In this document: piece by piece, positions 5,066-59,577 of the stretch
Numbering within the stretch: position 1 is the stretch's first letter
Layout: every line of letters begins with the position of its first letter
Origin: Candidatus Woesearchaeota archaeon
GTDB lineage: Archaea > Nanobdellota > Nanobdellia > SCGC-AAA011-G17 > PNOQ01
Length of the DNA stretch: 64,000 nucleotides
Assembly (NCBI GenBank): GCA_964603065.1
Contig: CAZRTL010000005.1
Coordinates: forward strand, 4,700-68,699
Direction of reading: 5' to 3'
Made by a program: the position numbers and the translations under genes
Notes under the pieces: model-generated
What the model saw: the letters and a program-made list of their open reading frames with translations, nothing else
The model's database searches: none
Told to the model about the DNA's origin: nothing

Positions 5066-5066
5066 T

Positions 5067-16021: not shown

Positions 16022-16022
16022 C

Positions 16023-20048: not shown

Positions 20049-20572
20049 TGAAAAAAGTTTTAGCCTCAATATTTTTAATAATTTTTGTTATTTTAACGGC
20101 CTTAAATTTAATATTTTTTATTGAAATATATCAAAATAAAGATTTAAAAGAATTTTACCTCGGAGCGGAACTTCCAAGCGATTATTCAGAAAAAGAAAAA
20201 ATCCACATGGAAGAAGTTAAAATATTGACAAATATCCCATTATTACTAAATTTAATATTCTTAGTTGCAATTTTATTATTTAGAAACCCAGACTTCAAAA
20301 AAACAGGTAAGTCTTTAATAATAATCTCAATTTTACTTTTTATTGGTGCACTATTTTTTCAGAGTTTCTTTAGACAATTTCATTTATTACTTTTCAATTC
20401 AGACAATTGGTTATTACCTAAAGATTCCATTTTAATTCAAACCTATCCACTAGAATTTTTTAGAAATAAATTTATTTTAATTAACACAATAATTCTACTT
20501 ACTGGTGTTTTTTTGAGAAGCTACGGATTGCCCTTTAAAAGATTTTTTCAAAAACCACAAAGAAAAAGCTAG
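20048..20572 (+). CDS. membrane protein, hypothetical
   Basis: TAATG overlap with the upstream gene; 4-5 TM segments. Confidence 0.4.
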   Translation: MKKVLASIFLIIFVILTALNLIFFIEIYQNKDLKEFYLGAELPSDYSEKEKIHMEEVKILTNIPLLLNLIFLVAILLFRNPDFKKTGKSLIIISILLFIGALFFQSFFRQFHLLLFNSDNWLLPKDSILIQTYPLEFFRNKFILINTIILLTGVFLRSYGLPFKRFFQKPQRKS

Positions 20573-22457: not shown

Positions 22458-22921
22458 TCTTTACACTCTCCACAACTACAGTCATCTCCACAAATTTCAC
22501 ACTGTCCAGAATCACATAAAGGATCCCCACAATCTACTGGCTCTGCATTAGGTGTAAATATACAAGTTTCAGGATCTGCATTTGGGCCATTACAATTGTC
22601 ATAAATAGCTAAATTATAAACTGCTTGAGCGGAAAAAAACAAACTCACAAAAAATAAAACAACAAACAGCCACGAAACAACCTCAAAATATTTATACACA
22701 GGCTTAGCTAAACCAGAATTTTTTCTCATCAAAGTTCCAACTAATTTAGATTTTAACTTCACATCTAAACCAGATTGGCATTTTCTAAGAGTAATCCTTC
22801 TAAAAACACAATCGAATGCCTCTTTTGCTATTGGCCTATGGCTAGCCGAAAAAATAGCCATAATTCCAAAAACAATCATTGCAATTAAACAAATCATGGA
22901 GTTTACAAAAATGATGGTCAT
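22454..22921 (-). CDS. membrane protein with a Cys-rich C-terminal tail
   Basis: Two to three TM segments plus CGDPLCDSGQCEICGDDCSCGECKE; ATGA overlap with the desulfurase start. Confidence 0.45.
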   Translation of the reverse strand: MTIIFVNSMICLIAMIVFGIMAIFSASHRPIAKEAFDCVFRRITLRKCQSGLDVKLKSKLVGTLMRKNSGLAKPVYKYFEVVSWLFVVLFFVSLFFSAQAVYNLAIYDNCNGPNADPETCIFTPNAEPVDCGDPLCDSGQCEICGDDCSCGECKE

Positions 22922-22970: not shown

Positions 22971-23705
22971 ATGATAAACCCAATAGCGTTTTCAATAGGA
23001 AACATAAATATCAATTGGTATGGTATAATCTTCGCACTAGGTTTCATAATCGCAATCCCTATAATGATCAAACTAGGAAAGCAAAAAAATATCACAAAAC
23101 AACAAATATATGATTATTTTATCTACCTAATTCCTCCTAGTATAATAGGAGCTAGATTATTAGCAGTTATCTTAAATTTCAATTTATATCAAGATAATTT
23201 ACTAAAAATATTTTATATCTGGCAAGGGGGAATGGCATTTCATGGAGGTTTAATAGGAGCAATAATAGGAACTTATTTTTTCTGTAAAAAACACAAAGTG
23301 CACTTTTATGACATAGCTGATATTATCTCAATTCCACTAGCTTTAGGACTATCTTTAGGAAGACTTGGAAATTTCATAAACCAGGAATTCTACGGAAGAT
23401 TAACAAATCTGCCATGGGGAATTCATTACGATGTTGTTGAAGGAAAAAGGCATCCCTCTCAAATTTATGAATCAATAAAAAACTTCATAATTTTCATATT
23501 CTTATTAAATTTTTATAAGTTAAAGAAACTAAAAAAAGGAGTAATATTTTGGCTTTTCATATTTCTCTACTCTTTATTCAGATTTCTTGTAGAATTCTAC
23601 AAAGATCAACCATTACTCTACCTAAACTTAACATACGGACAAATAATCAGCATTCCTCTCTTCATACTATCGATAATAATACTAAGGAAAATAGGTAAAA
23701 AATGA
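22971..23705 (+). CDS. lgt: prolipoprotein diacylglyceryl transferase
   Basis: PIAFSIGNININWYGIIFALGF (compare E. coli [22 protein letters not shown]), MAFHGGLIGA, GRLGNFINQEFYGR (Lgt signature). Confidence 0.8.
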   Translation: MINPIAFSIGNININWYGIIFALGFIIAIPIMIKLGKQKNITKQQIYDYFIYLIPPSIIGARLLAVILNFNLYQDNLLKIFYIWQGGMAFHGGLIGAIIGTYFFCKKHKVHFYDIADIISIPLALGLSLGRLGNFINQEFYGRLTNLPWGIHYDVVEGKRHPSQIYESIKNFIIFIFLLNFYKLKKLKKGVIFWLFIFLYSLFRFLVEFYKDQPLLYLNLTYGQIISIPLFILSIIILRKIGKK

Positions 23706-24178: not shown

Positions 24179-25111
24179 TTGACTAAAAAATTAAACAAGT
24201 GGAAAATTAGTACATTCGTACTTATTCTTATATTAATCATTGTAATTGTCTTTTCTGGTTTCAATCCTTTAAGCTTAACAACTGGAAATGCAGTTGCACA
24301 AAATGCTGTTAGTTTTATTAACACAAATATGTTACAAGGTCAAACAGCAACAGTTGAAGATGTAAGTTCTATAAGTGGAGTTTACAAGGCATCTATTAAT
24401 ATACAGGGACAACCTGCAGAAGTCTATGTAACAAAAGATGGAAAATTAATGTTTTTACAGGCAGTACCATTAGTTCCAGTAGATACTCCTACTGGCACAA
24501 ATACAGATACTAACACAAATACAAATATAGATGTACCAAAATCAGATAAACCCTCAGTAGAATTATTCGTGATGAGTCTTTGTCCATTCGGAAATAAAGC
24601 GGAGGACACGATGTTGTCAGTATACAATCTACTAAAAGACAAAGTAGAGTGGAAGATAAATTACATAGTTTCTACAGAAGGCGACACAATCAGATCATTA
24701 CATGGTCAACCAGAAACAGATCAAAACATACAAGAAGTATGTGTAAAAAAGGAATATGGTCTAAATTCATTCTGGGATTTTATTACTTACATAAACAAAA
24801 ACTGTGGAAGCAACGGAAATTGTTGGGAAGATGGAGCGATAGAATTAGGATTGGATGTAACAACAATACAAGAATGCTTTGATAATGAAGGAATAAGCTT
24901 GATGCAAGTGGAAGCACAAATATCCGGAGAAGCTGGAGCAACAGGATCACCAACATTATTGATAAATGGTGTAAAATCCAGTGAAGTCTATAAGTATAGT
25001 AACTCTGAAGCATACAAACAAGCAATTTGTTCTGCATTCAACGAAGCTCCTGAAGAATGTTCAGAAACCTTAGAAAGTTCAACTACAACATCCAACGGGG
25101 GAAGTTGCTAA
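24179..25111 (+). CDS. membrane-anchored secreted protein with a Thr/Asn-rich linker
   Basis: N-terminal TM, TPTGTNTDTNTNTNID low-complexity linker, C-terminal Cys-containing globular domain. Confidence 0.45.
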   Translation: MTKKLNKWKISTFVLILILIIVIVFSGFNPLSLTTGNAVAQNAVSFINTNMLQGQTATVEDVSSISGVYKASINIQGQPAEVYVTKDGKLMFLQAVPLVPVDTPTGTNTDTNTNTNIDVPKSDKPSVELFVMSLCPFGNKAEDTMLSVYNLLKDKVEWKINYIVSTEGDTIRSLHGQPETDQNIQEVCVKKEYGLNSFWDFITYINKNCGSNGNCWEDGAIELGLDVTTIQECFDNEGISLMQVEAQISGEAGATGSPTLLINGVKSSEVYKYSNSEAYKQAICSAFNEAPEECSETLESSTTTSNGGSC

Positions 25112-25175: not shown

Positions 25176-26201
25176 TTGATTTATATGAAAATTAAATACT
25201 CTGACTTTGTTAAAACTTACTCTAAAATACATAGGAATTCCATCTATTACCCAAAAGTTATGAAATTTCATGATAAAGGCCTTAAAGTTAAAAATATTTC
25301 CAAAAAACTAAATTTACCATATCTTCTTGTCTGGAGATGGGTAAATAACAAAACCATTCCTCATTCATATTTAGAATATTCAAAAATTAAGAAAAAATTT
25401 AATTCTAAAGAGATAAAAAATCTCGCTAAAGTAATGGGATATATTTATGGAGATGGAGGAATATTAAAAAATGGAAGGATTCATTACTGTAATACTGAGA
25501 AATTCTTAATAAGTGACTTCATAAAATCAGTAAACAAAGTATTTGCACAAAATCCACATATTAAAAAAGAGTCAAAAATATTCCGTGTTAAGTTCTCTGC
25601 GATAATGGGTAAAACCTTGTGGTGACTATTTGGAAAATTTAGTTATGGCAAAGACACTAAAAAAGTTACTGAACAAATAAAGAAGATGCCTTTAGAGTGG
25701 AAAGCAAATATGTTACAAACCTGGTTCAATGACGATGGTAGCGTACCAAATTATGGTGTGATCGCAATTAAACAAAAACCCAAACACTTGATTGAATTCA
25801 TACAAACTACATTAATGGAATTTAATATAAAATCAATAGTATCCAGAGATGGAGATACGTGGCTTCTAAGAATATGTAGCTACTTGGATTTAAAAAAATT
25901 TCAAGAAAAAATTAATTTTACAAAGGGATACAGAAAAAGAGAATTATTAGAAAAAACCATCTCAGAAAAGAAAAATCCTACAAATGTTACAAAAAATAAA
26001 ATATTGGAATTATTGCAAAACTCTCCAAGAACTCTAAAAGAGCTACAATACAATTTAAGTATAAACAGAAATGTCATATATGGGCACCTTCATGGATGGA
26101 AAAGAAAAAGCAAAAACAAGAAAAGTACACTAGGATTAGTCGATTTAAACTTAATAGGGGTCAAAGGAAAGGGTAAAGATAAAATTTTTTACATAAAATA
26201 A
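25176..26201 (+). pseudogene. LAGLIDADG homing-endonuclease-like gene interrupted by an in-frame TGA (25626-25628)
   Basis: Two LAGLIDADG-type motifs (MGYIYGDGGI; LQTWFNDDGSV) in the same frame, separated by a single TGA; C-terminal HTH-like tail. Confidence 0.55.
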
Positions 26202-26236: not shown

Positions 26237-26749
26237 TTAATCTACCTTAACAGTAGATTGTCTTTCTCGTATATCTATCCGTTCAAACTCTCCACCATAA
26301 AAAAATACCTCAGCATCAAAATCCCCAGTCAGCTTCTCATCAAGATTATCGTTAAATTCCGGTAAATAATCCACATTTAGAAACAAAGAAACAGAACCCT
26401 CCGTAATCTCATCACCTTCCATAAAATCAGCATTTACAGTAGCTTTATCCTCTAACCTAACATCTCTTTGTCTGAAAGCAAAAACTTCTCCTTCATAATC
26501 ACATAAACTCCCTAAACTCTTACTCTCCAAAAGATATTCTCTAGCATTTTCAACTAAATCTATTAAATAATCATCTGGAAGCTCCATTAATCTAGCATCT
26601 AAAGAATCGATATGACTATACGTATGTATAAACCCAGTTTTTTCAGAATAAGGAAGATCTACATTAGGTGAATAATTCACTCTTGAAGCTCCACATCCAA
26701 CAACAAGCGACACCAATAAAGTCAGTAAACTTTTCCTAAAATTAATCAT
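26237..26749 (-). CDS. putative lipoprotein (lipobox LVVGC)
   Basis: Signal peptide MINFRKSLLTLLVSLVVGCGAS with a Cys at the lipobox position. Confidence 0.5.
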   Translation of the reverse strand: MINFRKSLLTLLVSLVVGCGASRVNYSPNVDLPYSEKTGFIHTYSHIDSLDARLMELPDDYLIDLVENAREYLLESKSLGSLCDYEGEVFAFRQRDVRLEDKATVNADFMEGDEITEGSVSLFLNVDYLPEFNDNLDEKLTGDFDAEVFFYGGEFERIDIRERQSTVKVD

Positions 26750-27050
26750 TTTTGTAAAAAACCCTCATCAAAATCTTAAAATCACCCATAGACATATCAT
26801 CAGGAGAAATAGTTTTTGTTTCAGTTCTATCATAACCATCTTTTGTAAAAGACATTCTTAAAATAAACATTCCACCTTTTACTCCTAAAATTTCATAATG
26901 AGCATCTGCTATCAATCTAGTTTCTTGAGAAGGAAAATAATCAGGTTGAAATTCTGTACTTACTCCTCCAGAAGGCCCACAGCCAAACAAAAAGGGGGTT
27001 AATAAAGCGGTAATTCCTAATCCTTTTCTAAACTTACTTGAAATATCCAT
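26742..27050 (-). CDS. putative lipoprotein (lipobox LFGC)
   Basis: ITALLTPFLFGCGPS lipobox-like; overlaps the downstream lipoprotein gene by 8 nt. Confidence 0.5.
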   Translation of the reverse strand: MDISSKFRKGLGITALLTPFLFGCGPSGGVSTEFQPDYFPSQETRLIADAHYEILGVKGGMFILRMSFTKDGYDRTETKTISPDDMSMGDFKILMRVFYKND

Positions 27051-34432: not shown

Positions 34433-35086
34433 ATGAATATGAAAAACAAAGGTTTAAAGATTACAATTGGAGTTTTAGCAGTAGTACTAGTCATTAGCAT
34501 TTTCGCTAATTTTGGAAACACTAGCAATGGGACAGCAAATGCAGTAAAACCGACAGGAACATCTAGAGTAGAGGTGTCAGTAGATGATGATACAATAAAA
34601 GGAAATCCAAATGCACCTGTTACAATAGTAGAATTTTCTGACTTCCAATGTTCATTCTGTGCTAGATTTTACGAGCAAACTCTACTACAATTACGACAAC
34701 AATACATTGATACTGGAAAAGTAAAATTCGTATACAGAGATTTCCCATTAGGTAATCATGAATATGCACAAAAAGCAGCAGAAGCAACAGAGTGTGCAGA
34801 TGATCAAGGAAAATTCTGGGAAATGCATGACTTGTTATTCGAAACAGGTTTATTAGCACCAAGTGACTTAAAACAACATGCAGTTACTTTAGGACTAGAT
34901 ACAACAGAGTTTAACGAATGTTTAGATTCTGGAAAATATACTGGTGAAGTGCAAAAAGATCTAAAAGATGGACAAGCTGCTGGAGTACAAGGAACACCGA
35001 GTTTCTTCATTAATGGAGTATTATTAAGAGGAGCACAACCGTTCAGCGCATTTCAACAAGTAATAGAAGCAGAATTAGCTTCTTAA
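34433..35086 (+). CDS. DsbA-like thiol:disulfide oxidoreductase, membrane-anchored
   Basis: EFSDFQCSFCARF thioredoxin-fold CxxC; N-terminal TM. Confidence 0.75.
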   Translation: MNMKNKGLKITIGVLAVVLVISIFANFGNTSNGTANAVKPTGTSRVEVSVDDDTIKGNPNAPVTIVEFSDFQCSFCARFYEQTLLQLRQQYIDTGKVKFVYRDFPLGNHEYAQKAAEATECADDQGKFWEMHDLLFETGLLAPSDLKQHAVTLGLDTTEFNECLDSGKYTGEVQKDLKDGQAAGVQGTPSFFINGVLLRGAQPFSAFQQVIEAELAS

Positions 35087-38225: not shown

Positions 38226-40226
38226 TTACTCTTCTCCGCCTTCAGACTCAGCTTCTCCTTCTCCTTCAGATTCGGCTTCACCTTCACCCTCAGATTCAGC
38301 TTCGCCTTCCCCTTCAGACTCGCCCTCACCACTACTATCATCTTCATAGTAGCATACACAGTGGTCGTCTATACAATCGGTTCCTGAAGATCCTGGACAC
38401 TCGTCCATACACCCATCTTGACATTCACTCCAAGTATCATCATCTCCCTCACTCCAATCATCCCAGTCATCCTGCCATTCATCTGGTCCATCCTGCTGTT
38501 CCTCATACTGGCCAAAGTCTATACATCTCAAATCGATTGGGCACTGATGTCCTTCTCCTGAGTCCCCCATTATTGGTTCATCTCCAGCATGTTGACCATA
38601 GAGATCCCTGCATCCCTGTTTTTTAACTTCCCAATCCTGTTCAGTCATACATGGCCCCACATAATCACCATCAGATACACCGTGGTACCCCCCAACTTGA
38701 GATCCAGCATTGTCATAACAATCCAACCTTTCCATAGGGTCTTCTATTTCTCTACAATTAAAATCAAATCTTGGTCCGCCCATTTTTGGGTCCTTATCTC
38801 TGCCTCTTCTCAAAAATTCTTCACAATCTCTAAAATCATGAATTTGATTTGCTTGACATTCTGAAGGTCTATTTCCTATACCCCACATGAAATCCTTACA
38901 TTCTTCGTCATCAGTTATTCCCCTCTCAATACATTCTGGAGGGGCATGTAGCTCATACATTATTTTATCACATATCTCTCTACCTTCCATCTCAGTCCTT
39001 GGATTCGCTGCTAAAAGAGCTTCCTTACACTCCTCTGGAGCATGTGTAGTAATCATAATTTTACTACAATCTTCAGGAGTAGTAGCTCCTGCTTCCACAC
39101 ATTCAGGAGGCATATGTAAATCAAATTTCTTATGTTGTATATCTCCTTCTAAAAATCTCATAACTTCTTCTAAATGGGGTGGCAACTCTGGCATATCCAA
39201 ACTATCAAGTTTTTCACATGCCTTCTCATCACCCTCAATATCACAAGCGGTTGCTAGTGGGGCAGCTCTAGAACATGCATTTGCAAAACTGGAATAAGGT
39301 ATTTCATCACACCTACACTCTTGTCCAGAAGTTTCAAAACACTGTCCCATTATTTCAGCAAATTTCTTTGCTTCTTTCTTCTGCTCTTCAGTCAAATCAT
39401 CAAACATTTCCTTGTGCCACCTTGGTCCCTCATCATCAACCCTACAATTTTGATAAAACAGTTCAGGATCTAAATCAGATAGCTCCCTACATAACTCATT
39501 AATTTTAGAAGCAATTTCAGCAGCAGTAGCAATAGAATGCTCCCTATCAATAATATCATGAACAAACTCATCCCTTTCACCAGGAGGAACTTTATCTTGT
39601 ATGTCCCTCATAGCATTTCTTATAGCAGCTGAACTCCTTAATGCCTCTTCTCTTCTCTCAGGACCCACCTCTTTCTCGAATTCTTCGGCAGTTTCAATAT
39701 AAATCATTAAAGCTTTTTTTGCAGACTCAATATCTCCTGCTTCAACCATTGCTTTAATTTCGGCAATTTTTTCTTCTCTAACTTCTATATCATCTCCGAA
39801 CCGATCAAAAAACTTATCAAAAACATATAAAGCACTATCTGGAGTCGTTCCAGCATCAACTTCTAATTCAGAATCTTCATAACCTTCAAATATATAATCC
39901 TCTTTTTCTTTAACAACACATTCACCATCTTCATATCCACAATCAAATTCTCTAGTTGGCGGCAAACACTCGGCCACAACTACAAAATCATACGGAGCAC
40001 ACGCATCGCCACACGGCAAACAACTCAATTCATCTATTTGATCTCCATATTGTTCTTTACATTCCTGAATACAAGGCCTTCTATCTGCTTCATCAGTAAA
40101 ATCTGCCTTACAGCCACCTATACATTTATCCAATTCATTAATACTTTCACGAGCACTTGCGGATTCAAAAGAAAAAATACTAATTAACAAAATACTCACC
40201 AATAGAATAATATACCTCTTTTCCAT
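38226..40226 (-). CDS. large secreted Cys-rich protein with a C-terminal acidic (SEGEGEAE)n tail
   Basis: Signal peptide, more than 50 Cys, and a terminal GEGESEGEGEAESEGEGEAESEGEGEAESEGGEE tail. Confidence 0.55.
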   Translation of the reverse strand: MEKRYIILLVSILLISIFSFESASARESINELDKCIGGCKADFTDEADRRPCIQECKEQYGDQIDELSCLPCGDACAPYDFVVVAECLPPTREFDCGYEDGECVVKEKEDYIFEGYEDSELEVDAGTTPDSALYVFDKFFDRFGDDIEVREEKIAEIKAMVEAGDIESAKKALMIYIETAEEFEKEVGPERREEALRSSAAIRNAMRDIQDKVPPGERDEFVHDIIDREHSIATAAEIASKINELCRELSDLDPELFYQNCRVDDEGPRWHKEMFDDLTEEQKKEAKKFAEIMGQCFETSGQECRCDEIPYSSFANACSRAAPLATACDIEGDEKACEKLDSLDMPELPPHLEEVMRFLEGDIQHKKFDLHMPPECVEAGATTPEDCSKIMITTHAPEECKEALLAANPRTEMEGREICDKIMYELHAPPECIERGITDDEECKDFMWGIGNRPSECQANQIHDFRDCEEFLRRGRDKDPKMGGPRFDFNCREIEDPMERLDCYDNAGSQVGGYHGVSDGDYVGPCMTEQDWEVKKQGCRDLYGQHAGDEPIMGDSGEGHQCPIDLRCIDFGQYEEQQDGPDEWQDDWDDWSEGDDDTWSECQDGCMDECPGSSGTDCIDDHCVCYYEDDSSGEGESEGEGEAESEGEGEAESEGEGEAESEGGEE
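38241..38330. repeat. about 3.75 tandem copies of a 24-nt unit encoding the acidic tail
   Basis: ttcagactcagcttctccttctcc / ttcagattcggcttcaccttcacc / ctcagattcagcttcgccttcccc... Confidence 0.7.
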
Positions 40227-42104: not shown

Positions 42105-42299
42105 ATGAAGAGGATATTAATTATACTGACACTAGTAGTTTTGTTAGTCTCTAGTTGTACTCAAATACAAACCGAAGACACAGAAAAAACTGGAGATGAA
42201 TCCACGGATAATTTAGAAGATTATATCTCCAATTTTGATAACTTAGATTCTGATCTAAATGAACTAGATGATTTTAACCTAAATGATTTAGATTTTTAA
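42105..42299 (+). CDS. small acidic lipoprotein-like protein (LVSSC lipobox)
   Basis: MKRILIILTLVVLLVSSCTQ followed by a D/E/N-rich tail. Confidence 0.4.
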   Translation: MKRILIILTLVVLLVSSCTQIQTEDTEKTGDESTDNLEDYISNFDNLDSDLNELDDFNLNDLDF

Positions 42300-44233: not shown

Positions 44234-44644
44234 ATGAATAGATCATTAATCGCTGCAACAACAACTCTACTACTATCTTTAGGTATAGCTGGAAGTTGCG
44301 TAGCATACAAACAAAATAGATGGATTTCAAGAGATAATAGCATAACTATTGAGGGAAGAGTAATTGATGAAAATATGTATTGGAATGACGGAGAAAATTT
44401 GCATAACCCCTCATTACTCAATTTGAATGTTCAAAGAAGGGGATACACAATAAAAAGTGATTCTGGAGAGTTTTATTTAGCACTTACACCTTCCCCAAAA
44501 GCTGACCCATTGAACGTAGGATATAAAGGACAATTTAGTCTAGGAACTCATCTAAGAAATAAGGTAGAAGAAGTATATCATAATGGTAAATTAACTCCTA
44601 CAAAAATATCTGTAAGACCTCTCTTTGAATATGATTTAGAATAA
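44234..44644 (+). CDS. secreted hypothetical protein
   Basis: Signal peptide. Confidence 0.4.
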   Translation: MNRSLIAATTTLLLSLGIAGSCVAYKQNRWISRDNSITIEGRVIDENMYWNDGENLHNPSLLNLNVQRRGYTIKSDSGEFYLALTPSPKADPLNVGYKGQFSLGTHLRNKVEEVYHNGKLTPTKISVRPLFEYDLE

Positions 44645-50545: not shown

Positions 50546-52465
50546 TTATTGATTGGCAAACCTTCCTTTATCTCCGCCTGCCTGCCCGCCCAACTCTTTA
50601 GGTAACATTGAAAATCCTCCACCTTGCATCTTAAAGTTCTGTTCGGGCAACATATCTCCAAATCCAAATAAGTATGATGAATAAACATCTCTAACATCTG
50701 TCCAACTTGGTCCTTTATCATATGAATAAAAGGGACTATTCAATCCTTCAACAGCATAAGAAACGGGGCTCATTTTGAATTGATTTATCATACCCCCTGC
50801 TTCAACAACTGCCGGACCTTCCCATTTCTTTCCTTGAGCTTTCTCAATGGCTTCAACTTGTTCCTTTATTGGAACATTTCCCATTCCTGGAGCCAAATGT
50901 GTATCCCCATATCCAAAATTATCTGTAAGGTGTAGATGTTTAACATGTTTACCTATTTTCTTAGCTTCCTCAACAATCTCTTTTTCACTATAACCATATT
51001 TTCTCAACTGATTGATATGGCCAACATCCCAAGTAACACCCACATTTTTTTCGGCTACTTTTTCGGCTGATCCCTTACTCATTCCCTCCTTAACTAATTT
51101 TTCACTAAATTGTTTTTTAGAACTTTCAATCATTTTCTTCAAAGATTCCGCTCTAGATAAAGTCCACTCGGGAAAAACGTTCTCAACAGCAATCAAAGGC
51201 ATCTTATCCCCAAATTTTTTATAAGCATGTAAGGCAACATTAGCAAATGTTTCGGCGGCTTTTTCTTGAGCAACATCATCTACCGGCCTATATATTTCTG
51301 GAGTTTGTAAATCAATCAAAGAGTTAGAAATTATTTCAGGAGTAATTCTTTGACCAACTTGATTTTGAATTCTATTCTCCATCTCTTGTTGCATTTCCAT
51401 TATACGAGGATTCATTTCCTCTCTACTCATTTTTCCTTTATTATCTTTTATCCATTTATTTATTTTTCCTTCTTTGCCTAAATAAGCGATTTCTATTTTA
51501 TTTTGGTTTTCAAAATCTGTAGTTAATTTTTTCAACTCAACCTCTTTTTCCTCATAATCATAAATTTCTTTTTCAGTTTTTCCTTCTTTATTAAATCCTT
51601 TTTTATAAGTATGATAAACATCGTTCAAATGTGAAAATAAATAAGAATTATACTGCCTCTTTTGCTCCTCATATCTATCCTCAACACTTTTCAAAGCTTT
51701 AATCTCATCCATTTCTCCCTGACTTATTCTCCCGCCAGTTTGTCTATATTTTTGTTCCAAAAGCATCAATTTCTTTCCCTCATCACTATTAAATTGCCAA
51801 TTTCTTTGTAAGGCCTCAGTTTCCTCTTTTTGTTTCATCAAACTCAAGAACTCCATTTTCTTTTGTTCCCAAGAACTATCATTCATAGTTTTTAATCTCC
51901 TATCAACATCTAATATTTCTTTCCCAGTTAACCACTCAACTTCTTCATGTATTACGGGGGTTATTTGGCCTGTTTGAGTATTAACAACACTCATCATCTC
52001 TCTTGTTTCTCCACCACCTTCCTCTTTCTTACCCCAGATATTAGCAGCCACTCCTCCGCCCGAAGCGTGAAAATTAACGGGGATATTTCCATCTGGGTCT
52101 AATTGATGTGCCCTCTCAATAACATCTTTAAATTCTTGTTCTGCCAATTTCCTTTGATGCTCATTCCAACCCTGCTGTGAAAATCCTGCTGGATCAGTCT
52201 GAACAGGAGCGTGAACGGAAAGCTTACTATCAGTTAACTTAGACAATCTTCTCATCTCATCCATATGTTGAGCAGGAATAGCACTAAAAACATCCTGACT
52301 TAAAGAGCCAATCTCTACATTCTTAACCCCTTCATTTAGTCTCATTCCTAGTTCTCCTAATTGATTAGCCGTCTGAGGATTAGTACTCCAACTCAAATTA
52401 CCAAAATGCATAGAAAAATCATTTTCCATTCCACCCATCCTTTTATCTCGAAATCTATCTACCAT
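50546..52465 (-). CDS. xylose-isomerase/Endonuclease-IV-like TIM-barrel protein with a ~250-aa charged insertion
   Basis: NFHASGG, IAVENV, WDVGH and HLHLTDN..G.GDTHLAPGMGN resemble the Nfo motifs NFHPGS, VIENTAG, IDTCH and MHLNDAK...DRHH.LGEGNIG. Confidence 0.45.
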   Translation of the reverse strand: MVDRFRDKRMGGMENDFSMHFGNLSWSTNPQTANQLGELGMRLNEGVKNVEIGSLSQDVFSAIPAQHMDEMRRLSKLTDSKLSVHAPVQTDPAGFSQQGWNEHQRKLAEQEFKDVIERAHQLDPDGNIPVNFHASGGGVAANIWGKKEEGGGETREMMSVVNTQTGQITPVIHEEVEWLTGKEILDVDRRLKTMNDSSWEQKKMEFLSLMKQKEETEALQRNWQFNSDEGKKLMLLEQKYRQTGGRISQGEMDEIKALKSVEDRYEEQKRQYNSYLFSHLNDVYHTYKKGFNKEGKTEKEIYDYEEKEVELKKLTTDFENQNKIEIAYLGKEGKINKWIKDNKGKMSREEMNPRIMEMQQEMENRIQNQVGQRITPEIISNSLIDLQTPEIYRPVDDVAQEKAAETFANVALHAYKKFGDKMPLIAVENVFPEWTLSRAESLKKMIESSKKQFSEKLVKEGMSKGSAEKVAEKNVGVTWDVGHINQLRKYGYSEKEIVEEAKKIGKHVKHLHLTDNFGYGDTHLAPGMGNVPIKEQVEAIEKAQGKKWEGPAVVEAGGMINQFKMSPVSYAVEGLNSPFYSYDKGPSWTDVRDVYSSYLFGFGDMLPEQNFKMQGGGFSMLPKELGGQAGGDKGRFANQ

Positions 52466-53907
52466 GTCATCATCCTATGTGCTTTCTTAAAAACATCATA
52501 TAAAGTAAAACATCTGGACTTAGCAACACTTTGAGCCTCACTAAGAACTTTCTTCTCTTCAAAACTTCCAGCCTTTTTTTCAGAGCCTGGAACAAAACTA
52601 CCTAAAATATTCCCAAATTCACCAAGCCCCTTAAATCCTTTTTTCAAAGATACAAAAAAATCTTCTTCTTTCTCTCCTTCTTTCTTCTTTTCTGGATAAA
52701 TATACTCATCTAAATCGGCTTGTAACTTTTCCAAACTGAATTCTGTCAATTCTTCTACCATTGCCATATTCTCATAAACTTCTTGTGCATAAATATCATC
52801 TAAATCGGCTTGATCAAAAACATATGCTCTAAAAAAAACATCTATTGTTCCCATATGAGCAAAGTGTTGGCTCTGGCCTTGCCTTACAACCTGCGGAGCA
52901 GTTCTGTACTGGAACTCTGCCTCTAAACACATATAATAATCCTTACTAAATTTAAATTTTTTAAAAGATGGGTGAACACTATCCGGACTAATTTTCTTCT
53001 TTGCCATTAACTTAAGTTCCATTTGCATACTATCAAAAGTAGTAACCATGTCTGGACTAGGCAACCCCGCCTTTGTCTTAAATTCCTTCATACCTAATTT
53101 CTGGGCAGCTCTTAAATAAGGCCTCGCCCAAGTAGTATATAATTTCAAACTATCAACTTGTGCTCTCAAATAGTTTTTCTCTATATCATGTCTCTTCCTT
53201 AATTCTCTCTCACTAGCTTCTTTCCAAGCATTATACTCTCCAAATTTTTTCTTTATGATCGTTTTAACTCTTTTATTTAAATCCATTCTATCTACATCTT
53301 TTGAAGAAGTCGCTTGCATAAAAGCATCTCTTAACGTAACAAAATTTAAGTCCCCTCTAGTTAACTGGTTTATACTTCCTAATCCAGTTTTGACATCAAC
53401 TTGATCCATCCATATTCCTCTTAAAGAATACTCTCCCTCAAGCTTAGTATTTTTATCTTTAGATTTAATAGAATCATAAGCTTGTAATCGCATATCAAAT
53501 TCCTTCAAATCATAAATTAAATTAATAATTGTTCTCAAAACGGCATTAACAGTTTCTAATATTTTCATAGCTCTGTCTTGCATAACACTAGCTTTACTTC
53601 CCAATTCCCCAAAAAATCCTCCCCCAGAACTGGCCTCAAACTCCTCCGTAACTTTATCAACTTCAAACCCTAATCCAGAAGGATCATCAGCTCTTAAAAA
53701 ATCTAAAGTCCAGAAATAAACAGGCTCCAAAGTATTAGAAAATGTGTCATAAATAATATGGTATTCAACAGGGTTTCCACTATCAAATTTAACTATTCCC
53801 TTTTTTTTAATCAACTCAATTAATTTTTCCCTTTTCTCTTTTTTTTCCTTAAAAGAAATATCTTCATTTTTAAGCTCCGCTCTAAGAGAATTTATGTTAA
53901 CCACCAT
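52459..53907 (-). CDS. hypothetical 482-aa protein, translationally coupled to the TIM-barrel gene
   Basis: 7-nt overlap with the downstream gene; no recognised motifs. Confidence 0.45.
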   Translation of the reverse strand: MVVNINSLRAELKNEDISFKEKKEKREKLIELIKKKGIVKFDSGNPVEYHIIYDTFSNTLEPVYFWTLDFLRADDPSGLGFEVDKVTEEFEASSGGGFFGELGSKASVMQDRAMKILETVNAVLRTIINLIYDLKEFDMRLQAYDSIKSKDKNTKLEGEYSLRGIWMDQVDVKTGLGSINQLTRGDLNFVTLRDAFMQATSSKDVDRMDLNKRVKTIIKKKFGEYNAWKEASERELRKRHDIEKNYLRAQVDSLKLYTTWARPYLRAAQKLGMKEFKTKAGLPSPDMVTTFDSMQMELKLMAKKKISPDSVHPSFKKFKFSKDYYMCLEAEFQYRTAPQVVRQGQSQHFAHMGTIDVFFRAYVFDQADLDDIYAQEVYENMAMVEELTEFSLEKLQADLDEYIYPEKKKEGEKEEDFFVSLKKGFKGLGEFGNILGSFVPGSEKKAGSFEEKKVLSEAQSVAKSRCFTLYDVFKKAHRMMTW

Positions 53908-53984: not shown

Positions 53985-54377
53985 ATGAAAAAATTCTTCA
54001 TTATAGCGGCCATAATAGTAGTTTTAGACCAAATTACAAAAATTCTATTTACTAACAAACATTTTGGTATCATAAATTACACCACAAACACTGGAGCAGC
54101 TTTCTCTTTATTTCAAGGATATACCTTTTTTCTGGCAATAATTTCAATTTTAATAGCAATTTTTATATATTTTCTAGCTAAAAAAAATAAAAATTTGCAA
54201 ATCCCCCTTGCTTTCATATTTGGAGGGGCAGTAGGAAATTTAATAGACAGGTTATTTCTAGGTCATGTAAGAGACTTTATTGATTTGCAAGTTTGGCCAA
54301 TATTTAACATAGCAGATTCTTTCAATGTAATTGGAGTTGTAATAATAGCATATTTAATTTTAAAAGGAAAAACTTAA
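53985..54377 (+). CDS. lspA: lipoprotein signal peptidase (signal peptidase II)
   Basis: Four TM segments, NTGAAFSLF and FNIADSF signature blocks; 130 aa. Confidence 0.8.
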   Translation: MKKFFIIAAIIVVLDQITKILFTNKHFGIINYTTNTGAAFSLFQGYTFFLAIISILIAIFIYFLAKKNKNLQIPLAFIFGGAVGNLIDRLFLGHVRDFIDLQVWPIFNIADSFNVIGVVIIAYLILKGKT

Positions 54378-54396: not shown

Positions 54397-55035
54397 ATGA
54401 TAAGCAAAGGTTTATTAATTTTATTATCCTTAATTTCTTTAATGAAGTATGATATCAAAATAAATAATATTCCAATACCAAAAAAGATTTCTAATAAGTG
54501 GCAAGATATGATGAACTTGCTGGCAGAATATGCAAAGATACCGGCAGCACTAATTATGAAAGTAGAACCTCCAAAAATTGAAGTTTTTATTTCAAGCAAA
54601 ACAAAAAACAATCCCTATAATAAAGGGGAATCAGAAAAGCTCACGGGATTATATTGTGAAACGGTAATTGGGAAAAATAAGAGGTTGTTAATACCTAATG
54701 CTTTAAAGAGTAAAAAATGGAGAAATAATCCAGATATTAAATCGGGAATGATTTCCTACCTCGGATTTCCACTAAGATGGCCAGATGGAAAACCCTTCGG
54801 TACAATATGTATCCTTGATTCAAAAGAAAACAAATATAATAAAAAAATTGAAAGACTTATCATAAGTTTCAAAGAGTTGATAGAATTTAATCTAGATTTG
54901 ATACAAATGTACCATCTTCAAGGTCGCAAAGTAAAAGAATTAGAAAAATATCGTAAACATATAATTAGTAGAGAATTGAAAATGGTCGAATTAAAGAACC
55001 GTATTAAGGAATTAGAAAAAGGGCTTAAAAATTAA
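54397..55035 (+). CDS. GAF-like domain protein with a C-terminal coiled coil
   Basis: Weak GAF-like pattern (GFPLRWPDGKPFGTICILD). Confidence 0.35.
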   Translation: MISKGLLILLSLISLMKYDIKINNIPIPKKISNKWQDMMNLLAEYAKIPAALIMKVEPPKIEVFISSKTKNNPYNKGESEKLTGLYCETVIGKNKRLLIPNALKSKKWRNNPDIKSGMISYLGFPLRWPDGKPFGTICILDSKENKYNKKIERLIISFKELIEFNLDLIQMYHLQGRKVKELEKYRKHIISRELKMVELKNRIKELEKGLKN

Positions 55036-58149: not shown

Positions 58150-59577
58150 ATGAAAGTAAAAAAGGGGGTAATGACATTTCTCATACTATTAATCTTAACT
58201 AACTCTACATACGCGATAACCGAAATACTATTCTCGATTCCTTGCATTCCAAGTAATCCAGACTGGCCAGACTGTTTAAATGATGAAAATTCTTTACCAG
58301 AACCGGGGGAAGAAAAATCTAGTTTCAAACAATGTGATTATCCTGGAGAATGTCTCACACCCGATTCAATTCTTTATCAACCTGGCATGTACTGCAACGA
58401 AAATGGAGTATTAGAAGCGAACTGCCAAACATGTGGCTGTGACGGAAATGGAGTTTGCAACGCACCAACTGGAACCTGTACTTGTACAGATGGTACTCCT
58501 TTAGGAGCGTGTTCAACAAATAAACCAAAATTCTGTAATGGTGGATATCTAGTAAATAATTGTGAATATTGTGGTTGTTCTGAAAATGCTTGTTGCTATG
58601 AAGATTCCGGAATGTGCTCTCCTTACAATCAAGAATGTTATGATGGATGCATAGCAAATTATGTTGAAAATAGCAGAACAATAGGAGAAGAATGTGAATC
58701 GACAGAAGACTGTCCTGAAGGAACAAGGTGTTACGGCTGTCAATGTATAGAAATACACGCAGATACACAGTCTTCTTGTCCAAATTATTGGGGGGAAGTG
58801 GGATTTGAGTATCAAGATGGCATTTACTCTTGCCAATTAATCAATGTAAATAGTGGCTATACAGATCCATTATATGCAGATTATATGGATTATTTAATTG
58901 ACGATGCTTTAGACTGTTGTGAAAACCAAGAAGCAGTATCTGAAGGAAACAAAGATATTTGTGAAGCAATACACGAAGCGTACGATCCTCAAACAATAAG
59001 GGATTGCACAGCTAGATTCATAAATAAACATATCAATGATTGCTTTTACAATCCTGAAAGTGAAGGGTGTTTTTATTTTGGAAATTATTACTATCCTGAA
59101 TTATGTTGTGCAGATCACGAACTATGTGAGTTTGGAGGGGGCACTCCTAACACATGCAGCCCTAATGAATCAACCATAGGTGTGTATAATAACTATGTCC
59201 AATCATTAACTTGCGCCTATAATGATTGTCGATTTACCCCTCAACCAGCGTGGAAAAGTATGATGTTATTACAAACGGGGACATGTCAAGATTACTCTTT
59301 TGTTTTGACCACCCTCAATAGAAGAACTGGATATCATAATTTAGATCAAGGAGATCTAGTACTGTCTACAGATAACAATGTGCACACTTATAATTTTATT
59401 TGGCTTGATGTGTATGGTAAATGGGTAGTTTCGAATTATGGTAAATTTTACCCGAGCGATACTGAAGATTTACATCAGTGTACCACTGATGCCCAGAGAT
59501 GCTATAATGAATATGAAGAATTTTATTGTAGCTCATCATGGAAACAAGATCATCTATCTGGTTGTGAAAATGGATAA
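58150..59577 (+). CDS. secreted Cys-rich protein (about 50 Cys)
   Basis: Signal peptide plus dense CxC/CxxC content. Confidence 0.5.
   Translation: MKVKKGVMTFLILLILTNSTYAITEILFSIPCIPSNPDWPDCLNDENSLPEPGEEKSSFKQCDYPGECLTPDSILYQPGMYCNENGVLEANCQTCGCDGNGVCNAPTGTCTCTDGTPLGACSTNKPKFCNGGYLVNNCEYCGCSENACCYEDSGMCSPYNQECYDGCIANYVENSRTIGEECESTEDCPEGTRCYGCQCIEIHADTQSSCPNYWGEVGFEYQDGIYSCQLINVNSGYTDPLYADYMDYLIDDALDCCENQEAVSEGNKDICEAIHEAYDPQTIRDCTARFINKHINDCFYNPESEGCFYFGNYYYPELCCADHELCEFGGGTPNTCSPNESTIGVYNNYVQSLTCAYNDCRFTPQPAWKSMMLLQTGTCQDYSFVLTTLNRRTGYHNLDQGDLVLSTDNNVHTYNFIWLDVYGKWVVSNYGKFYPSDTEDLHQCTTDAQRCYNEYEEFYCSSSWKQDHLSGCENG

What the first reader, a model, noticed from the sequence alone, without database searches (positions are those of the whole stretch)
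53985..54377. Signal peptidase II (LspA) homolog completing a lipoprotein maturation pathway
The 130-aa four-TM protein has the NTGAAF and FNIAD blocks of LspA. It lies 30 kb from lgt on the same contig, and together with lipobox-Cys proteins it argues for genuine bacterial-style diacylglyceryl lipoproteins in this archaeon.
Basis: partly seen in the sequence, partly recalled or inferred. Interest (0 to 1): 0.65.

Follow-up and report, generated by a model that had tools for sequence, protein, structure and literature searches.

The report
Bacterial-type lipoprotein pathway in an archaeon
A small DPANN (Woesearchaeota-type) archaeon encodes intact bacterial-type lipoprotein enzymes (Lgt, a compact signal peptidase II and a Lit-like transacylase) plus lipobox proteins, although recent archaeal literature says no such homologs have been reported in archaea.

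Summary
ORF 53985..54377(+) is a 130-aa LspA. It scores 103.8 bits on PF01252 (cutoff 25) and passes TIGR00077. All 14 highly conserved LspA residues are present, including the catalytic pair D97/D111. The AlphaFold model (pLDDT 92.7) matches only LspA crystal structures (TM 0.80-0.87).

The contig is archaeal on both sides of the gene. The lspA neighbourhood recurs on independent contigs of 262 kb and 346 kb. At least 120 close homologs of about 130 aa exist, and every named one is from Woesearchaeota, Nanoarchaeota or an unclassified "archaeon".

Lgt (22971..23705) is intact. Four credible lipobox proteins lie in the window.

It belongs to the Lit (lipoprotein intramolecular transacylase) family and keeps Lit's catalytic His pair. 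It stays linked to lgt in relatives. Lit chemistry needs an ester-linked acyl chain, so it supports the "diacylglyceryl" reading. The lipid itself remains inferred.

The proteins are already auto-annotated in NCBI and JGI. Papers from 2022 to 2026 still state that no archaeal Lgt/Lsp homologs have been reported. Classification: new member of a known kind, with a shortened β-cradle. Interest is about 0.66.

The parts
53985..54377 (+). lspA: compact (130 aa) lipoprotein signal peptidase II. Catalytic Asp residues are D97 and D111. The four TM helices are 2-21, 47-67, 69-92 and 109-126.
   Evidence: PF01252 scores 103.8 bits and TIGR00077 scores 77.4. PDB hits are 6ryo at 9e-16 and 5dir at 2e-12. 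All 14 conserved residues are present. AF2 pLDDT is 92.7, with TMq 0.87 to 6ryo_A.
22971..23705 (+). lgt: prolipoprotein diacylglyceryl transferase, 244 aa. Key residues are Y17, H91 (HGGL motif), R131, N134, N137, E139, G142, E167, Y200, R204 and E208.
   Evidence: PF01790 scores 249.6 bits and TIGR00544 scores 201.2 against a cutoff of 118.9. The match to 5azb has E 5e-36, with the signature motif GRLGNFINQEFYG. Essential residues are taken from PMC4728403.
20048..20572 (+). Lit-family (DUF1461/TIGR01906) membrane protein, 174 aa. It is a candidate lipoprotein intramolecular transacylase. The putative catalytic residues are H53 and H112.
   Evidence: PF07314 scores 52.6 bits against a cutoff of 24. 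The match to B. cereus Lit 7b0o has E 1.4e-5. H53, V57, K58, F108, H112, F116 and W121 correspond to Lit H85, V89, K90, F149, H153, F157 and W162. Foldseek's top five hits are all Lit. The gene is linked to lgt in L086, L087 and the 346-kb contig.
26237..26749 (-). Predicted lipoprotein substrate, N-terminus MINFRKSLLTLLVSLVVG|C, Cys19.
   Evidence: It passes both the strict [LVI][ASTVI][GAS]C rule and the PROSITE-like rule. It has no Pfam family.
26742..27050 (-). Predicted lipoprotein substrate, N-terminus MDISSKFRKGLGITALLTPFLFG|C, Cys24. It is adjacent to the previous one.
   Evidence: It passes the PROSITE-like lipobox rule. It has no Pfam family.
42105..42299 (+). Predicted small lipoprotein, N-terminus MKRILIILTLVVLLVSS|C, Cys18.
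   Evidence: It passes both the strict and the PROSITE-like rules.
44234..44644 (+). Predicted lipoprotein substrate, N-terminus MNRSLIAATTTLLLSLGIAGS|C, Cys22.
   Evidence: It passes the PROSITE-like rule. JGI and ENA both call it as a gene.
24179..25111 (+). Membrane-anchored DsbA/GILT-like thiol-disulfide oxidoreductase. It is a conserved downstream neighbour of lgt. No role in the pathway has been established.
   Evidence: PF03227 GILT scores 22.3 bits, marginal. Homologs lie directly downstream of lgt in L086, L087 and L088. The L088 copy carries DSBA/Thioredoxin_4 hits.
22454..22921 (-). Cys-rich membrane protein transcribed divergently from lgt. It is a conserved neighbour. No role has been established.
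   Evidence: It is conserved next to lgt in L086 and L087. In L088 it is fused to a DsbA domain. It has no Pfam or NCBIfam family.
52459..53907 (-). 482-aa protein of unknown family, transcribed divergently from lspA. It is a conserved neighbour. No role has been established.
   Evidence: tblastn finds it beside lspA in L005, L006, L010, L012, L018 and L027 at 27-69% identity. It has no Pfam, NCBIfam or PDB match.

Best explanation
This Woesearchaeota-type DPANN archaeon runs a bacterial-type lipoprotein maturation pathway that was acquired long ago by gene transfer and is now a stable part of the genome. Inferred sequence of events: Sec-exported precursors carry a lipobox. Lgt attaches a glyceryl-lipid from a phosphatidylglycerol-type donor to the lipobox Cys as a thioether. 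The compact aspartyl protease LspA (D97/D111, active site at the outer membrane face) then cuts the signal peptide just before the lipidated Cys. A Lit-family enzyme (H53/H112) probably moves the sn-2 acyl chain to the new Cys alpha-amine, giving lyso-form lipoproteins. Shown here: the genes, the intact catalytic and substrate-site residues, the folds, the archaeal genomic setting, conservation across the lineage, and the presence of lipobox substrates. Inferred: enzymatic activity, the order of steps, and that the lipid is an ester-linked diacylglycerol, whether self-made or taken from a bacterial partner. The confidence of 0.8 applies to a functional Lgt-then-LspA lipoprotein pathway in this archaeon. 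My confidence in the ester-diacylglycerol and lyso-form part alone is about 0.5.
For: LspA family membership and active site are established. The fold is established. Across 92 archaeal homologs down to 48% identity, D15, Q16, K19, N35, T36, G37, G81, N85, D88, R89, D97, F98, P105, F107, N108, A110 and D111 are invariant, which indicates purifying selection. Lgt is intact. The Lit-family gene keeps both catalytic His residues plus V, K, F and W. The contig is archaeal and not chimeric. GC content is uniform at 28-35%, so there is no recent island. LspA and Lgt both lie on the 346,477-bp JGI contig. Matching contig lengths across the LspA, Lgt and Lit hit lists (80,626; 172,035; 178,900; 90,457; 34,500; 63,357; 132,110) suggest co-occurrence on further contigs. 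Lipobox substrates are present: four in the window. Over 231 kb of Woese/Nano loci, Cys is the most enriched residue (4.4-fold) at +1 after a lipobox-like signal peptide, with canonical ...VIAG|CQ paralogs in L010. Context for ester lipids comes from PlsC-family and PLD-family genes beside lgt in L088 and from published FabG/I/Z and CFA-synthase genes in Woesearchaeota (PMC10936187; PMC11868695).
Against: There is no biochemical or lipidomic evidence. Archaeal membranes are normally ether-linked isoprenoid lipids on glycerol-1-phosphate, and whether Lgt can use such donors is unknown. The Lit homolog fails NCBIfam's strict models (NF051877 scores 18.9 against 400; TIGR01906 scores 52 against 74.8). 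Its model is only moderately confident (pLDDT 73.8, Foldseek E about 0.02). The LspA β-cradle, thought to cover the diacylglycerol chains and the residues after the cut site (PMC6952399), is 11 residues shorter than in solved structures, so substrate handling may differ. Only 64 kb of the genome was seen, so a co-existing archaeal AliA/AliB system cannot be excluded.
Confidence: 0.8

Rival explanations
1. The enzymes are the same, but the lipid is archaeal. Lgt has adapted to archaetidylglycerol and attaches an ether-linked diphytanylglyceryl (archaeol) group, as reported for haloarchaeal halocyanin. LspA then cleaves. The DUF1461 protein does something other than O-to-N acyl transfer.
For: The host is an archaeon. 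Archaeol-modified lipobox proteins are the known archaeal precedent (PMC12462473). The Lit homolog does not reach the equivalog thresholds. The shortened LspA β-cradle and the shorter Lgt and Lit extracytoplasmic parts could reflect a different lipid.
Against: The Lit catalytic dyad and surrounding conserved residues are invariant across the archaeal homologs, which is hard to explain without an acyl-ester substrate. Lgt residues that hydrogen-bond ester oxygens in E. coli (Y26 and R143) are kept as Y17 and R131. Ester-phospholipid enzymes lie next to lgt in L088. Many of these DPANN are reported to lack archaeal lipid synthesis and to carry bacterial-type lipid genes.
Confidence: 0.25
2. Artefact: lspA and lgt are bacterial DNA mis-assembled or mis-binned into an archaeal contig, or a very recent and possibly non-functional transfer.
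For: Both families are otherwise bacterial. The closest non-archaeal relatives are Clostridia-type, Caldisericales, Omnitrophota and Chloroflexi at 41-46% identity.
Against: Archaeal core genes flank both genes within a few kb. The same neighbourhoods recur in independent JGI, ENA and NCBI assemblies at 45-78% protein identity. At least 120 homologs form an archaeal group of about 130 aa. GC content is uniform. Catalytic residues are invariant. In the closest bacteria lgt sits immediately downstream of lspA, whereas in the archaeal loci the two genes are dispersed.
Confidence: 0.02
3. LspA has been repurposed. The protease processes something other than Lgt-lipidated prolipoproteins, such as other signal peptides or small secreted peptides, and its co-occurrence with Lgt is incidental.
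For: The β-cradle is shortened, down to 7 residues between TM1 and the N-x-G motif in some Woesearchaeota. lspA and lgt are not in one operon (30 kb apart). A paper listed (PMC7157817), which I did not read, reports processing of linear peptides in S. aureus.
Against: All 14 substrate- and antibiotic-contacting residues are conserved. Lgt, LspA and Lit-like genes co-occur across the lineage. Proteins with -1 Gly/Ser and +1 Cys are present and enriched.
Confidence: 0.07

Closest known systems
Bacterial LspA / signal peptidase II (Peptidase A8). Structures: S. aureus 6RYO/6RYP and P. aeruginosa 5DIR.
   Same: The fold is the same four-helix fold (TMq 0.80-0.87). The Asp dyad is the same. All 14 highly conserved residues that surround globomycin and myxovirescin are present. 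The extracellular loop after N-T-G is retained. The inferred N-in/C-in topology matches.
   Different: The protein is 130 aa, against about 150-190 aa in bacteria. The segment between TM1 and the N-x-G motif (the first β-cradle hairpin) is 15 residues, against 25-29 in bacteria, and only 7 in some Woesearchaeota. The host is an archaeon. The gene is not next to lgt or ileS; instead it pairs with a conserved 482-aa gene of unknown function.
E. coli Lgt (5AZB/5AZC)
   Same: The HGGL motif, the signature motif G-R-L-G-N-F-I-N-x-E-x-x-G, and the equivalents of Y26, R143, N146, E151, G154, E202, Y235, R239 and E243 are all kept.
   Different: The protein is 244 aa, against 291 aa. In the pairwise alignment, about 15 residues of the periplasmic head region and 5 residues of loop L6-7 are absent. 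Y30 is replaced by F and R246 by K. The host is an archaeon, and the donor lipid is unknown.
Bacillus cereus Lit, lipoprotein intramolecular transacylase (7B0O/7B0P; PMC8275575)
   Same: It belongs to Pfam family PF07314. The equivalents of catalytic His85 and His153 are present, as are Val89, Lys90, Phe149, Phe157 and Trp162. The best structural matches are Lit only.
   Different: The protein is 174 aa against about 218 aa. The extracytoplasmic cap between the first two helices is much shorter. Identity is about 22%. It scores below NCBIfam's Lit equivalog and TIGR01906 cutoffs. Activity is untested.
Haloferax volcanii AliA/AliB (arCOG02177/02178), the only described archaeal lipoprotein lipidation components (PMC12462473)
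   Same: The biological outcome is the same: a lipobox Cys lipidated in an archaeon. AliA is reported to be present in DPANN, with gaps.
   Different: The families are unrelated or at best marginally related (HHpred 29% to Lgt, per the paper). The genes described here are true Lgt and LspA orthologs of the bacterial enzymes. No signal peptidase II partner has been described for the Ali pathway.

Membership tests
LspA / signal peptidase II (Pfam PF01252, TIGR00077, MEROPS A8) | Whole-protein match to the family profiles above the curated cutoffs | tested here: met
   PF01252 scores 103.8 against 25, covering profile positions 1-141 of 142. TIGR00077 scores 77.4 against 73.95.
LspA / signal peptidase II (Pfam PF01252, TIGR00077, MEROPS A8) | Catalytic aspartate dyad (S. 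aureus D118/D136; P. aeruginosa D124/D143) | tested here: met
   D97 (in VRDFI) and D111 (in FNIADS) align to the dyad. Both are invariant in 92 archaeal homologs.
LspA / signal peptidase II (Pfam PF01252, TIGR00077, MEROPS A8) | The 14 highly conserved residues lining the active and antibiotic-binding site (list in PMC6952399) | tested here: met
   D15, K19, N35, G37, G81, N85, D88, R89, V95, D97, F107, N108, A110 and D111 are all identical to the S. aureus residues in alignment A1.
LspA / signal peptidase II (Pfam PF01252, TIGR00077, MEROPS A8) | Four-TM fold with an extracytoplasmic β-cradle and loop | tested here: met
   AF2 pLDDT is 92.7. TMq is 0.87, 0.85 and 0.80 to 6ryo, 6ryp and 5dir, with no other fold matched. 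Caveat: the first β-cradle hairpin is 11 residues shorter.
LspA / signal peptidase II (Pfam PF01252, TIGR00077, MEROPS A8) | Cleaves lipid-modified prolipoprotein before +1 Cys, and is inhibited by globomycin | not testable with these tools
   This requires an enzyme assay or complementation experiment.
LspA / signal peptidase II (Pfam PF01252, TIGR00077, MEROPS A8) | Genome also encodes Lgt and lipobox substrates | tested here: met
   lgt is at 22971..23705. Four lipobox proteins are in the window, and Cys is enriched 4.4-fold at +1 across related loci.
Lgt (PF01790, TIGR00544) | Profile match above cutoffs, and the essential residues or motifs HGGL, G-R-L-G-N-F-I-N-x-E-x-x-G, Y235, R239 and E243 | tested here: met
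   The scores are 249.6 against 24.9 and 201.2 against 118.9. H91, R131, N134, E139, G142, Y200, R204 and E208 are present.
Lgt (PF01790, TIGR00544) | Transfers diacylglyceryl from phosphatidylglycerol to the lipobox Cys | not testable with these tools
   The donor lipid in this archaeon is unknown.
Lit, lipoprotein intramolecular transacylase (PF07314; NCBIfam NF051877) | Family-level profile match | tested here: met
   PF07314 scores 52.6 against 24. The match to 7b0o has E 1.4e-5.
Lit, lipoprotein intramolecular transacylase (PF07314; NCBIfam NF051877) | Equivalog-level match (same function as characterised Lit) | tested here: not met
   NF051877 scores 18.9 against 400. TIGR01906 scores 52 against 74.8. 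I therefore file it as Lit-family or Lit-like, not as Lit.
Lit, lipoprotein intramolecular transacylase (PF07314; NCBIfam NF051877) | Catalytic His85/His153 dyad, plus Val89, Lys90, Phe149, Phe157 and Trp162 | tested here: met
   H53, H112, V57, K58, F108, F116 and W121 are present. H53, V57, K58, H112 and F116 are invariant in 8 archaeal homologs.
Lit, lipoprotein intramolecular transacylase (PF07314; NCBIfam NF051877) | Four-TM fold with an extracytoplasmic cap | tested here: inconclusive
   The model has pLDDT 73.8 from a 7-sequence alignment. The top five Foldseek hits are all Lit (TMq 0.46-0.67; probability 1.0 for the top four, 0.84 for the fifth), but E is 0.016-0.27. The cap is much reduced.
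LolCDE lipoprotein-release ABC transporter (considered for 13593..16739) | Match to the LolC/E and LolD equivalog models above cutoff | tested here: not met
   TIGR02212 scores 65.8 and 51.5 against 362. TIGR02211 scores 232.7 against 307.75. This is a generic MacB/FtsX-type transporter.
AliA/AliB archaeal lipoprotein lipidation proteins (arCOG02177/02178) | Homology to HVO_2859 or HVO_2611-type proteins | not tested
   No AliA/AliB sequence or profile was available in the tools. In addition, only 64 kb of the genome is in hand.

The most novel reading that the evidence does not exclude
Woesearchaeota/Nanoarchaeota membranes contain bacterial-type ester phospholipids, scavenged from bacterial partners or partly self-made. 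These archaea have replaced or supplemented the native archaeal AliA/AliB route with a complete Firmicute-like Lgt, LspA and Lit pathway that yields lyso-form, diacylglycerol-derived lipoproteins. If so, the lipoprotein N-terminus would be a direct, mass-spectrometry-readable reporter of a natural breach of the archaeal/bacterial lipid divide.
Probability: 0.4. Interest if true: 0.85.

Novelty: new member of a known kind. Interest (0 to 1): 0.66.

Why it matters
A review and two papers from 2022, 2025 and 2026 state that no archaeal signal peptidase II or Lgt homolog has been identified or reported (PMC7613921, PMC12462473, 10.64898/2026.03.08.710431). They use that absence to argue that archaeal lipids require different enzymes. 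These data show that a large, widespread archaeal lineage carries true orthologs of Lgt and LspA, plus a Lit-family protein, all stably integrated and conserved. This corrects the phyletic picture. It gives a second, independent route to archaeal lipoproteins. It also offers a tractable test, by lipopeptide mass spectrometry or heterologous assays, of whether these DPANN archaea use bacterial-type ester lipids. That question is tied to their host range and to the lipid divide. The miniaturised enzymes (130-aa LspA, 244-aa Lgt, 174-aa Lit-like) may also be useful minimal scaffolds for structural work on antibiotic targets.

Tried and rejected
**Chimeric or contaminant contig.** Rejected on conserved archaeal synteny in independent assemblies.

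**Recent horizontally transferred island.** Rejected. GC content is flat at 28-35% around both genes, and the genes are dispersed, unlike the bacterial lspA-lgt operon.

**Pseudo-enzyme.** Rejected on invariant catalytic residues in 92 homologs.

**LolCDE reading of the ABC transporter at 13593..16739.** Rejected, because the equivalog cutoffs are not met.

**Neighbour-joining tree of LspA (65 sequences, 151 columns).** The core Woesearchaeota group clusters together. Other Woese/Nano sequences intermingle with bacterial ones, and the donor lineage is unresolved. I draw no conclusion about the number of transfers.

**Short D-to-FNxAD spacing.** I first took this as a special feature. It is common in many bacteria, so it was dropped.

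**Orthologs of the window's lipobox proteins in held loci.** Only identical copies of the 44234 gene were found, so conservation of the Cys could not be tested.

**Supplementary tables of Hong et al.** These would show which DPANN genomes and which arCOGs were screened. They are not held in the library.

**Cluster look-ups for organism names of the exact window proteins.** No names were returned.

**'Methanosarcinales' loci L017 and L025.** The flanking genes are uninformative, so these are left undecided.

**The 482-aa neighbour of lspA.** It has no Pfam, NCBIfam or PDB hit.

**Literature searches for a prior report of Lgt/Lsp in DPANN.** None was found in the held library. This is not proof that none exists elsewhere.
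Full report
**1. The observation**

An ATG-initiated ORF of 130 codons sits at exactly 53985..54377 on the + strand. Its product matches Pfam PF01252 (Peptidase_A8, signal peptidase II) over essentially the whole profile (positions 1-141 of 142). The score is 103.8 bits against a gathering cutoff of 25. It also just passes the TIGR00077 lspA equivalog (77.4 against 73.95). By sequence alone it finds the three solved LspA proteins: S. aureus 6RYO at E 9e-16, and P. aeruginosa 9EMZ and 5DIR at about 2e-12.

**2.

Olatunji et al. 2020 (PMC6952399) list 14 highly conserved LspA residues that surround globomycin and myxovirescin. In S. aureus numbering these are D21, K25, N52, G54, G102, N106, D109, R110, V116, D118, F132, N133, A135 and D136. 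The catalytic dyad is D118/D136.

In alignment A1 these map to D15, K19, N35, G37, G81, N85, D88, R89, V95, D97, F107, N108, A110 and D111 of the window protein. All 14 are identical. In an alignment of 92 archaeal homologs reaching down to 48% identity (A2), thirteen of these positions are invariant and V95 is at least 90% conserved. The enzyme is therefore under purifying selection and is not a decaying pseudogene.

**3. The fold**

AlphaFold2 on alignment A2 gives mean pLDDT 92.7 and pTM 0.85. The model has four long helices (2-21, 47-67, 69-92, 109-126) and short strands at 30-35 and 95-99. Foldseek against the PDB returns only LspA structures: 6ryo_A at TMq 0.87, 6ryp at 0.85 and 5dir at 0.77-0.80. 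Nothing else scores below E = 8.9. The K-rich N-terminus, the TM2-TM3 loop (AKKNKN) and the C-terminus fit the N-in/C-in topology of bacterial LspA, which places D97 and D111 at the outer face. This topology is my inference from the sequence.

**4. What differs from bacterial LspA**

The protein is short. The loss is concentrated between TM1 and the N-x-G motif, which forms the first hairpin of the β-cradle. That segment is 25-29 residues in all bacterial sequences measured. It is 15 in this subclade, 20-21 in some other Woesearchaeota, and only 7 in a further subgroup (P0119, L010, L027).

The 10-residue spacing between the first catalytic Asp and FNxAD, which I first took as special, is common in many bacteria and is not distinctive. 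The β-cradle is thought to cover the diacylglycerol chains and the residues just after the cleavage site (PMC6952399). Its reduction is therefore the one feature that might reflect a different substrate environment.

**5. The host is an archaeon and the contig is sound**

The window (31% GC) encodes the following archaeal markers:
- euk/arch-type uS2 and uL16
- archaeal proteasome alpha
- Rrp41, Rrp42 and Rrp4
- RNase P component 2
- archaeal GluRS and TyrRS

The identical LspA protein occurs on a 262,465-bp JGI contig and in three further assemblies with the same gene order. A homolog at 64% identity sits on a 346,477-bp contig in the same neighbourhood. That neighbourhood runs: 482-aa ORF and AP_endonuc_2 gene on the opposite strand, then lspA, then TyrRS, methyltransferase, PUA protein, GluRS and L7Ae-S28e-L24e-NDK.

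tblastn shows the 482-aa gene next to lspA in six further Woese/Nanoarchaeota loci. GC content is flat across the window. A chimeric assembly or a recent island is excluded.

**6. Distribution**

The word-indexed search found 2,749 relatives at E <= 1e-10. The best 120 (49-100% identity) are all about 120-147 aa. Every one that carries a name is labelled 'signal peptidase II' from Candidatus Woesearchaeota, Nanoarchaeota, Nanoarchaeia or 'archaeon'.

The species-representative genome scan recovered ten Woese/Nanoarchaeota loci. The nearest bacteria, at 41-46% identity, are Thermosediminibacteraceae, Thermovenabulum, Caldisericales, Chloroflexia and Omnitrophota. One locus labelled Methanobacteriota (L073) is archaeal by its neighbours, which include eIF2-gamma, an S-layer protein and a DHH-CID RecJ-like protein. 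LspA is therefore present in at least one further archaeal lineage.

A neighbour-joining tree did not resolve the donor or the number of transfers.

**7. Lgt**

ORF 22971..23705(+), 244 aa, scores 249.6 bits on PF01790 and 201 on TIGR00544 (cutoff 119). It aligns to E. coli Lgt 5AZB at E 5e-36.

The residues that Mao et al. 2016 (PMC4728403) report as essential or as part of the catalytic hydrogen-bond network are retained. These are Y26, H103 of the HGGL motif, R143, N146, N149, E151, G154, E202, Y235, R239 and E243. In the window protein they are Y17, H91, R131, N134, N137, E139, G142, E167, Y200, R204 and E208.

The 120 closest homologs again carry only Woesearchaeota, Nanoarchaeota or 'archaeon' names. 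LspA and Lgt homologs lie on the same 346,477-bp contig. Several other longest-contig lengths coincide between the two hit lists.

In relatives, lgt lies immediately upstream of the archaeal RNA polymerase operon. In many of the closest bacteria lgt directly follows lspA. In none of the archaeal lspA loci is lgt within 10 kb. This is consistent with an old acquisition followed by rearrangement.

**8.

ORF 20048..20572(+), 174 aa and 2.4 kb upstream of lgt, matches PF07314 'Lipoprotein intramolecular transacylase Lit' at 52.6 bits (cutoff 24). It also matches B. cereus Lit 7B0O by sequence at E 1.4e-5.

Olatunji et al. [quoted passage not shown] They list Val89, Phe149, Phe157 and Trp162 as highly conserved, with a cationic Lys90. 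The window protein has H53, H112, V57, F108, F116, W121 and K58 at the aligned positions. H53, V57, K58, H112 and F116 are invariant in eight archaeal homologs.

The AF2 model is only moderate (pLDDT 73.8 from a 7-sequence alignment). Even so, its five best PDB matches are all Lit (TMq 0.46-0.67), and the next hit has TMq 0.26.

The gene is kept a few kb from lgt, directly after thyX, in two other lineages. A profile search finds 2,043 cluster representatives. The named ones are 'DUF1461 domain-containing protein' from Woesearchaeota (one on a 1.13-Mb contig) and Nanoarchaeota.

It fails NCBIfam's Lit equivalog (18.9 against 400) and TIGR01906 (52 against 74.8). I therefore call it Lit-family, not Lit.

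**9. Substrates**

A PROSITE-PS51257-style rule finds six N-termini in the window. Two are antisense to real genes and are discarded. Four are credible:
- VVG|C at 26237..26749
- LFG|C at 26742..27050
- VSS|C at 42105..42299
- AGS|C at 44234..44644

I applied the rule to 231 kb of window plus Woese/Nanoarchaeota loci while leaving the +1 residue free. Cys came up 19 times out of 303, a 4.4-fold excess over its background frequency. This is the largest enrichment of any residue. Textbook examples include three tandem ...VIAG|CQ paralogs in L010. This agrees with the prediction by Hong et al. that lipobox proteins are prevalent in DPANN.

**10. How it most likely works**

The parsimonious reading is the canonical order. 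Lgt lipidates the lipobox Cys. LspA cleaves before it. The Lit-like enzyme then performs an sn-2 O-to-N acyl shift, producing lyso-form lipoproteins.

The identity of the lipid is not shown. Four observations favour an ester diacylglycerol:
- The Lit reaction cannot occur on an ether lipid. This follows from the established chemistry in PMC8275575.
- Lgt keeps Y17 and R131. Their E. coli counterparts hydrogen-bond the ester oxygens of the acyl chains.
- In a Nanoarchaeota MAG (L088), lgt is flanked by a PlsC-family acyltransferase and a PLD-family enzyme.
- Independent papers report FabG/I/Z, CFA synthase and other bacterial-type lipid genes in Woesearchaeota. They suggest the lipids may come from bacterial hosts.

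The main rival is an archaeol thioether, as in halocyanin. It remains possible, and I put it at about 0.25.

**11. Relation to what is known**

At family level this is an ordinary LspA, and NCBI and JGI already label these proteins correctly. The literature does not reflect this:
- van Wolferen et al. 2022 say an archaeal SPase II 'has yet to be identified'.
- Hong et al. [quoted passage not shown] - A DPANN protein-family survey and a Woesearchaeota ODZ genomics paper do not mention lipoproteins at all.
- My full-text searches found no paper reporting Lgt or Lsp in DPANN.

I classify the finding as a new member of a known kind, found in an unexpected domain, with a reduced β-cradle as a variant trait.

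**12. Verdict**

The lipid identity and enzyme activities remain inferred. Interest is 0.66. A cell-envelope specialist would find it surprising, and it makes the question of ester lipids in DPANN archaea directly testable. It is tempered by the fact that the sequences are already correctly auto-annotated in public databases.

Noticed in passing
window 20048..20572 (+): A Lit-family (PF07314/DUF1461) membrane protein with both catalytic histidines lies 2.4 kb upstream of lgt. It is conserved near lgt in relatives and widespread in Woese/Nanoarchaeota.
   Followed up: yes
window 22454..22921 (-), 24179..25111 (+), 34433..35086 (+); L086, L087, L088: lgt is flanked by a conserved Cys-rich membrane protein, which is fused to DsbA in L088. 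It is also flanked by a membrane-anchored DsbA/GILT-like oxidoreductase. A second DsbA (PF13462, 134 bits) lies at 34433. The window also encodes very Cys-rich secreted proteins at 38226..40226 and 58150..59577. Together these suggest an extracytoplasmic disulfide system linked to lgt.
   Followed up: partly
window 50546..53907 (-); L005, L006, L010, L012, L018, L027: A 482-aa protein with no detectable family lies next to lspA, together with an overlapping 639-aa AP_endonuc_2 (xylose-isomerase-like TIM barrel) protein. The 482-aa gene neighbours lspA across six Woese/Nanoarchaeota loci, and the AP_endonuc_2 gene accompanies it in L005, L006, L012 and L018. Their function is unknown.
   Followed up: partly
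L088 (NCBI GCA_018901245.1, JAHIFB010000042.1) 4161..5096 and 12117..12722: In a Nanoarchaeota MAG, lgt is flanked by a PLD-family (PF13091) gene and a PlsC-family acyltransferase (PF01553) gene. Both are enzymes of bacterial-type ester glycerophospholipid metabolism.
   Followed up: partly
window 13593..16739 (-): A MacB/FtsX-type ABC transporter has two permeases with MacB periplasmic core domains plus an ATPase, the same architecture as LolCDE. It scores far below the LolC/E and LolD equivalog cutoffs, so it is not assigned to Lol.
   Followed up: yes
L073 9792..10229 (contig DAOWFR010000052.1, 'Methanobacteriota archaeon'); L017, L025 ('Methanosarcinales'): LspA homologs also occur on contigs attributed to other archaeal groups. 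L073 is archaeal by its neighbours (eIF2-gamma, S-layer protein, DHH-CID protein). L017 and L025 could not be decided.
   Followed up: partly
L010 1200..2511 (-); L013 1773..2828 (-); L065 2552..3853 (+): These loci carry tandem paralogous small proteins with canonical lipoprotein signal peptides, such as MDKKILIFVLLSFSLLVIAG|CQ, within a few kb of lspA in other Woese/Nanoarchaeota genomes.
   Followed up: partly
L015, L019, L020, L022, L024, L026, L030, L035, L040, L059, L066, L072 and others: In many of the closest bacterial relatives (Omnitrophota, Elusimicrobiota, WOR-1, Planctomycetales), lgt lies immediately downstream of lspA. In the archaeal lspA loci, lgt is not within 10 kb.
   Followed up: partly
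window 25176..26201 (+): Two consecutive ORFs look like a split LAGLIDADG homing endonuclease. PF14528 matches the second ORF, and a 'YIYGDGG' motif is in the first. They are free-standing between the lgt cluster and the lipobox genes.
   Followed up: no
346-kb JGI contig (sample 3300072015), about 9 kb upstream of lspA: A 367-aa CMAS-family (cyclopropane-fatty-acyl-phospholipid synthase-like, PF02353) gene lies near lspA in a relative. This echoes the published report of CFA synthase genes in Woesearchaeota.
   Followed up: no
window 54397..55035 (+): A 212-aa protein with a hydrophobic N-terminus and a weak GAF_2 match starts 19 bp after the lspA stop codon and may be co-transcribed. A homolog is not obviously kept at this position in the 64%-identity relative.
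   Followed up: no
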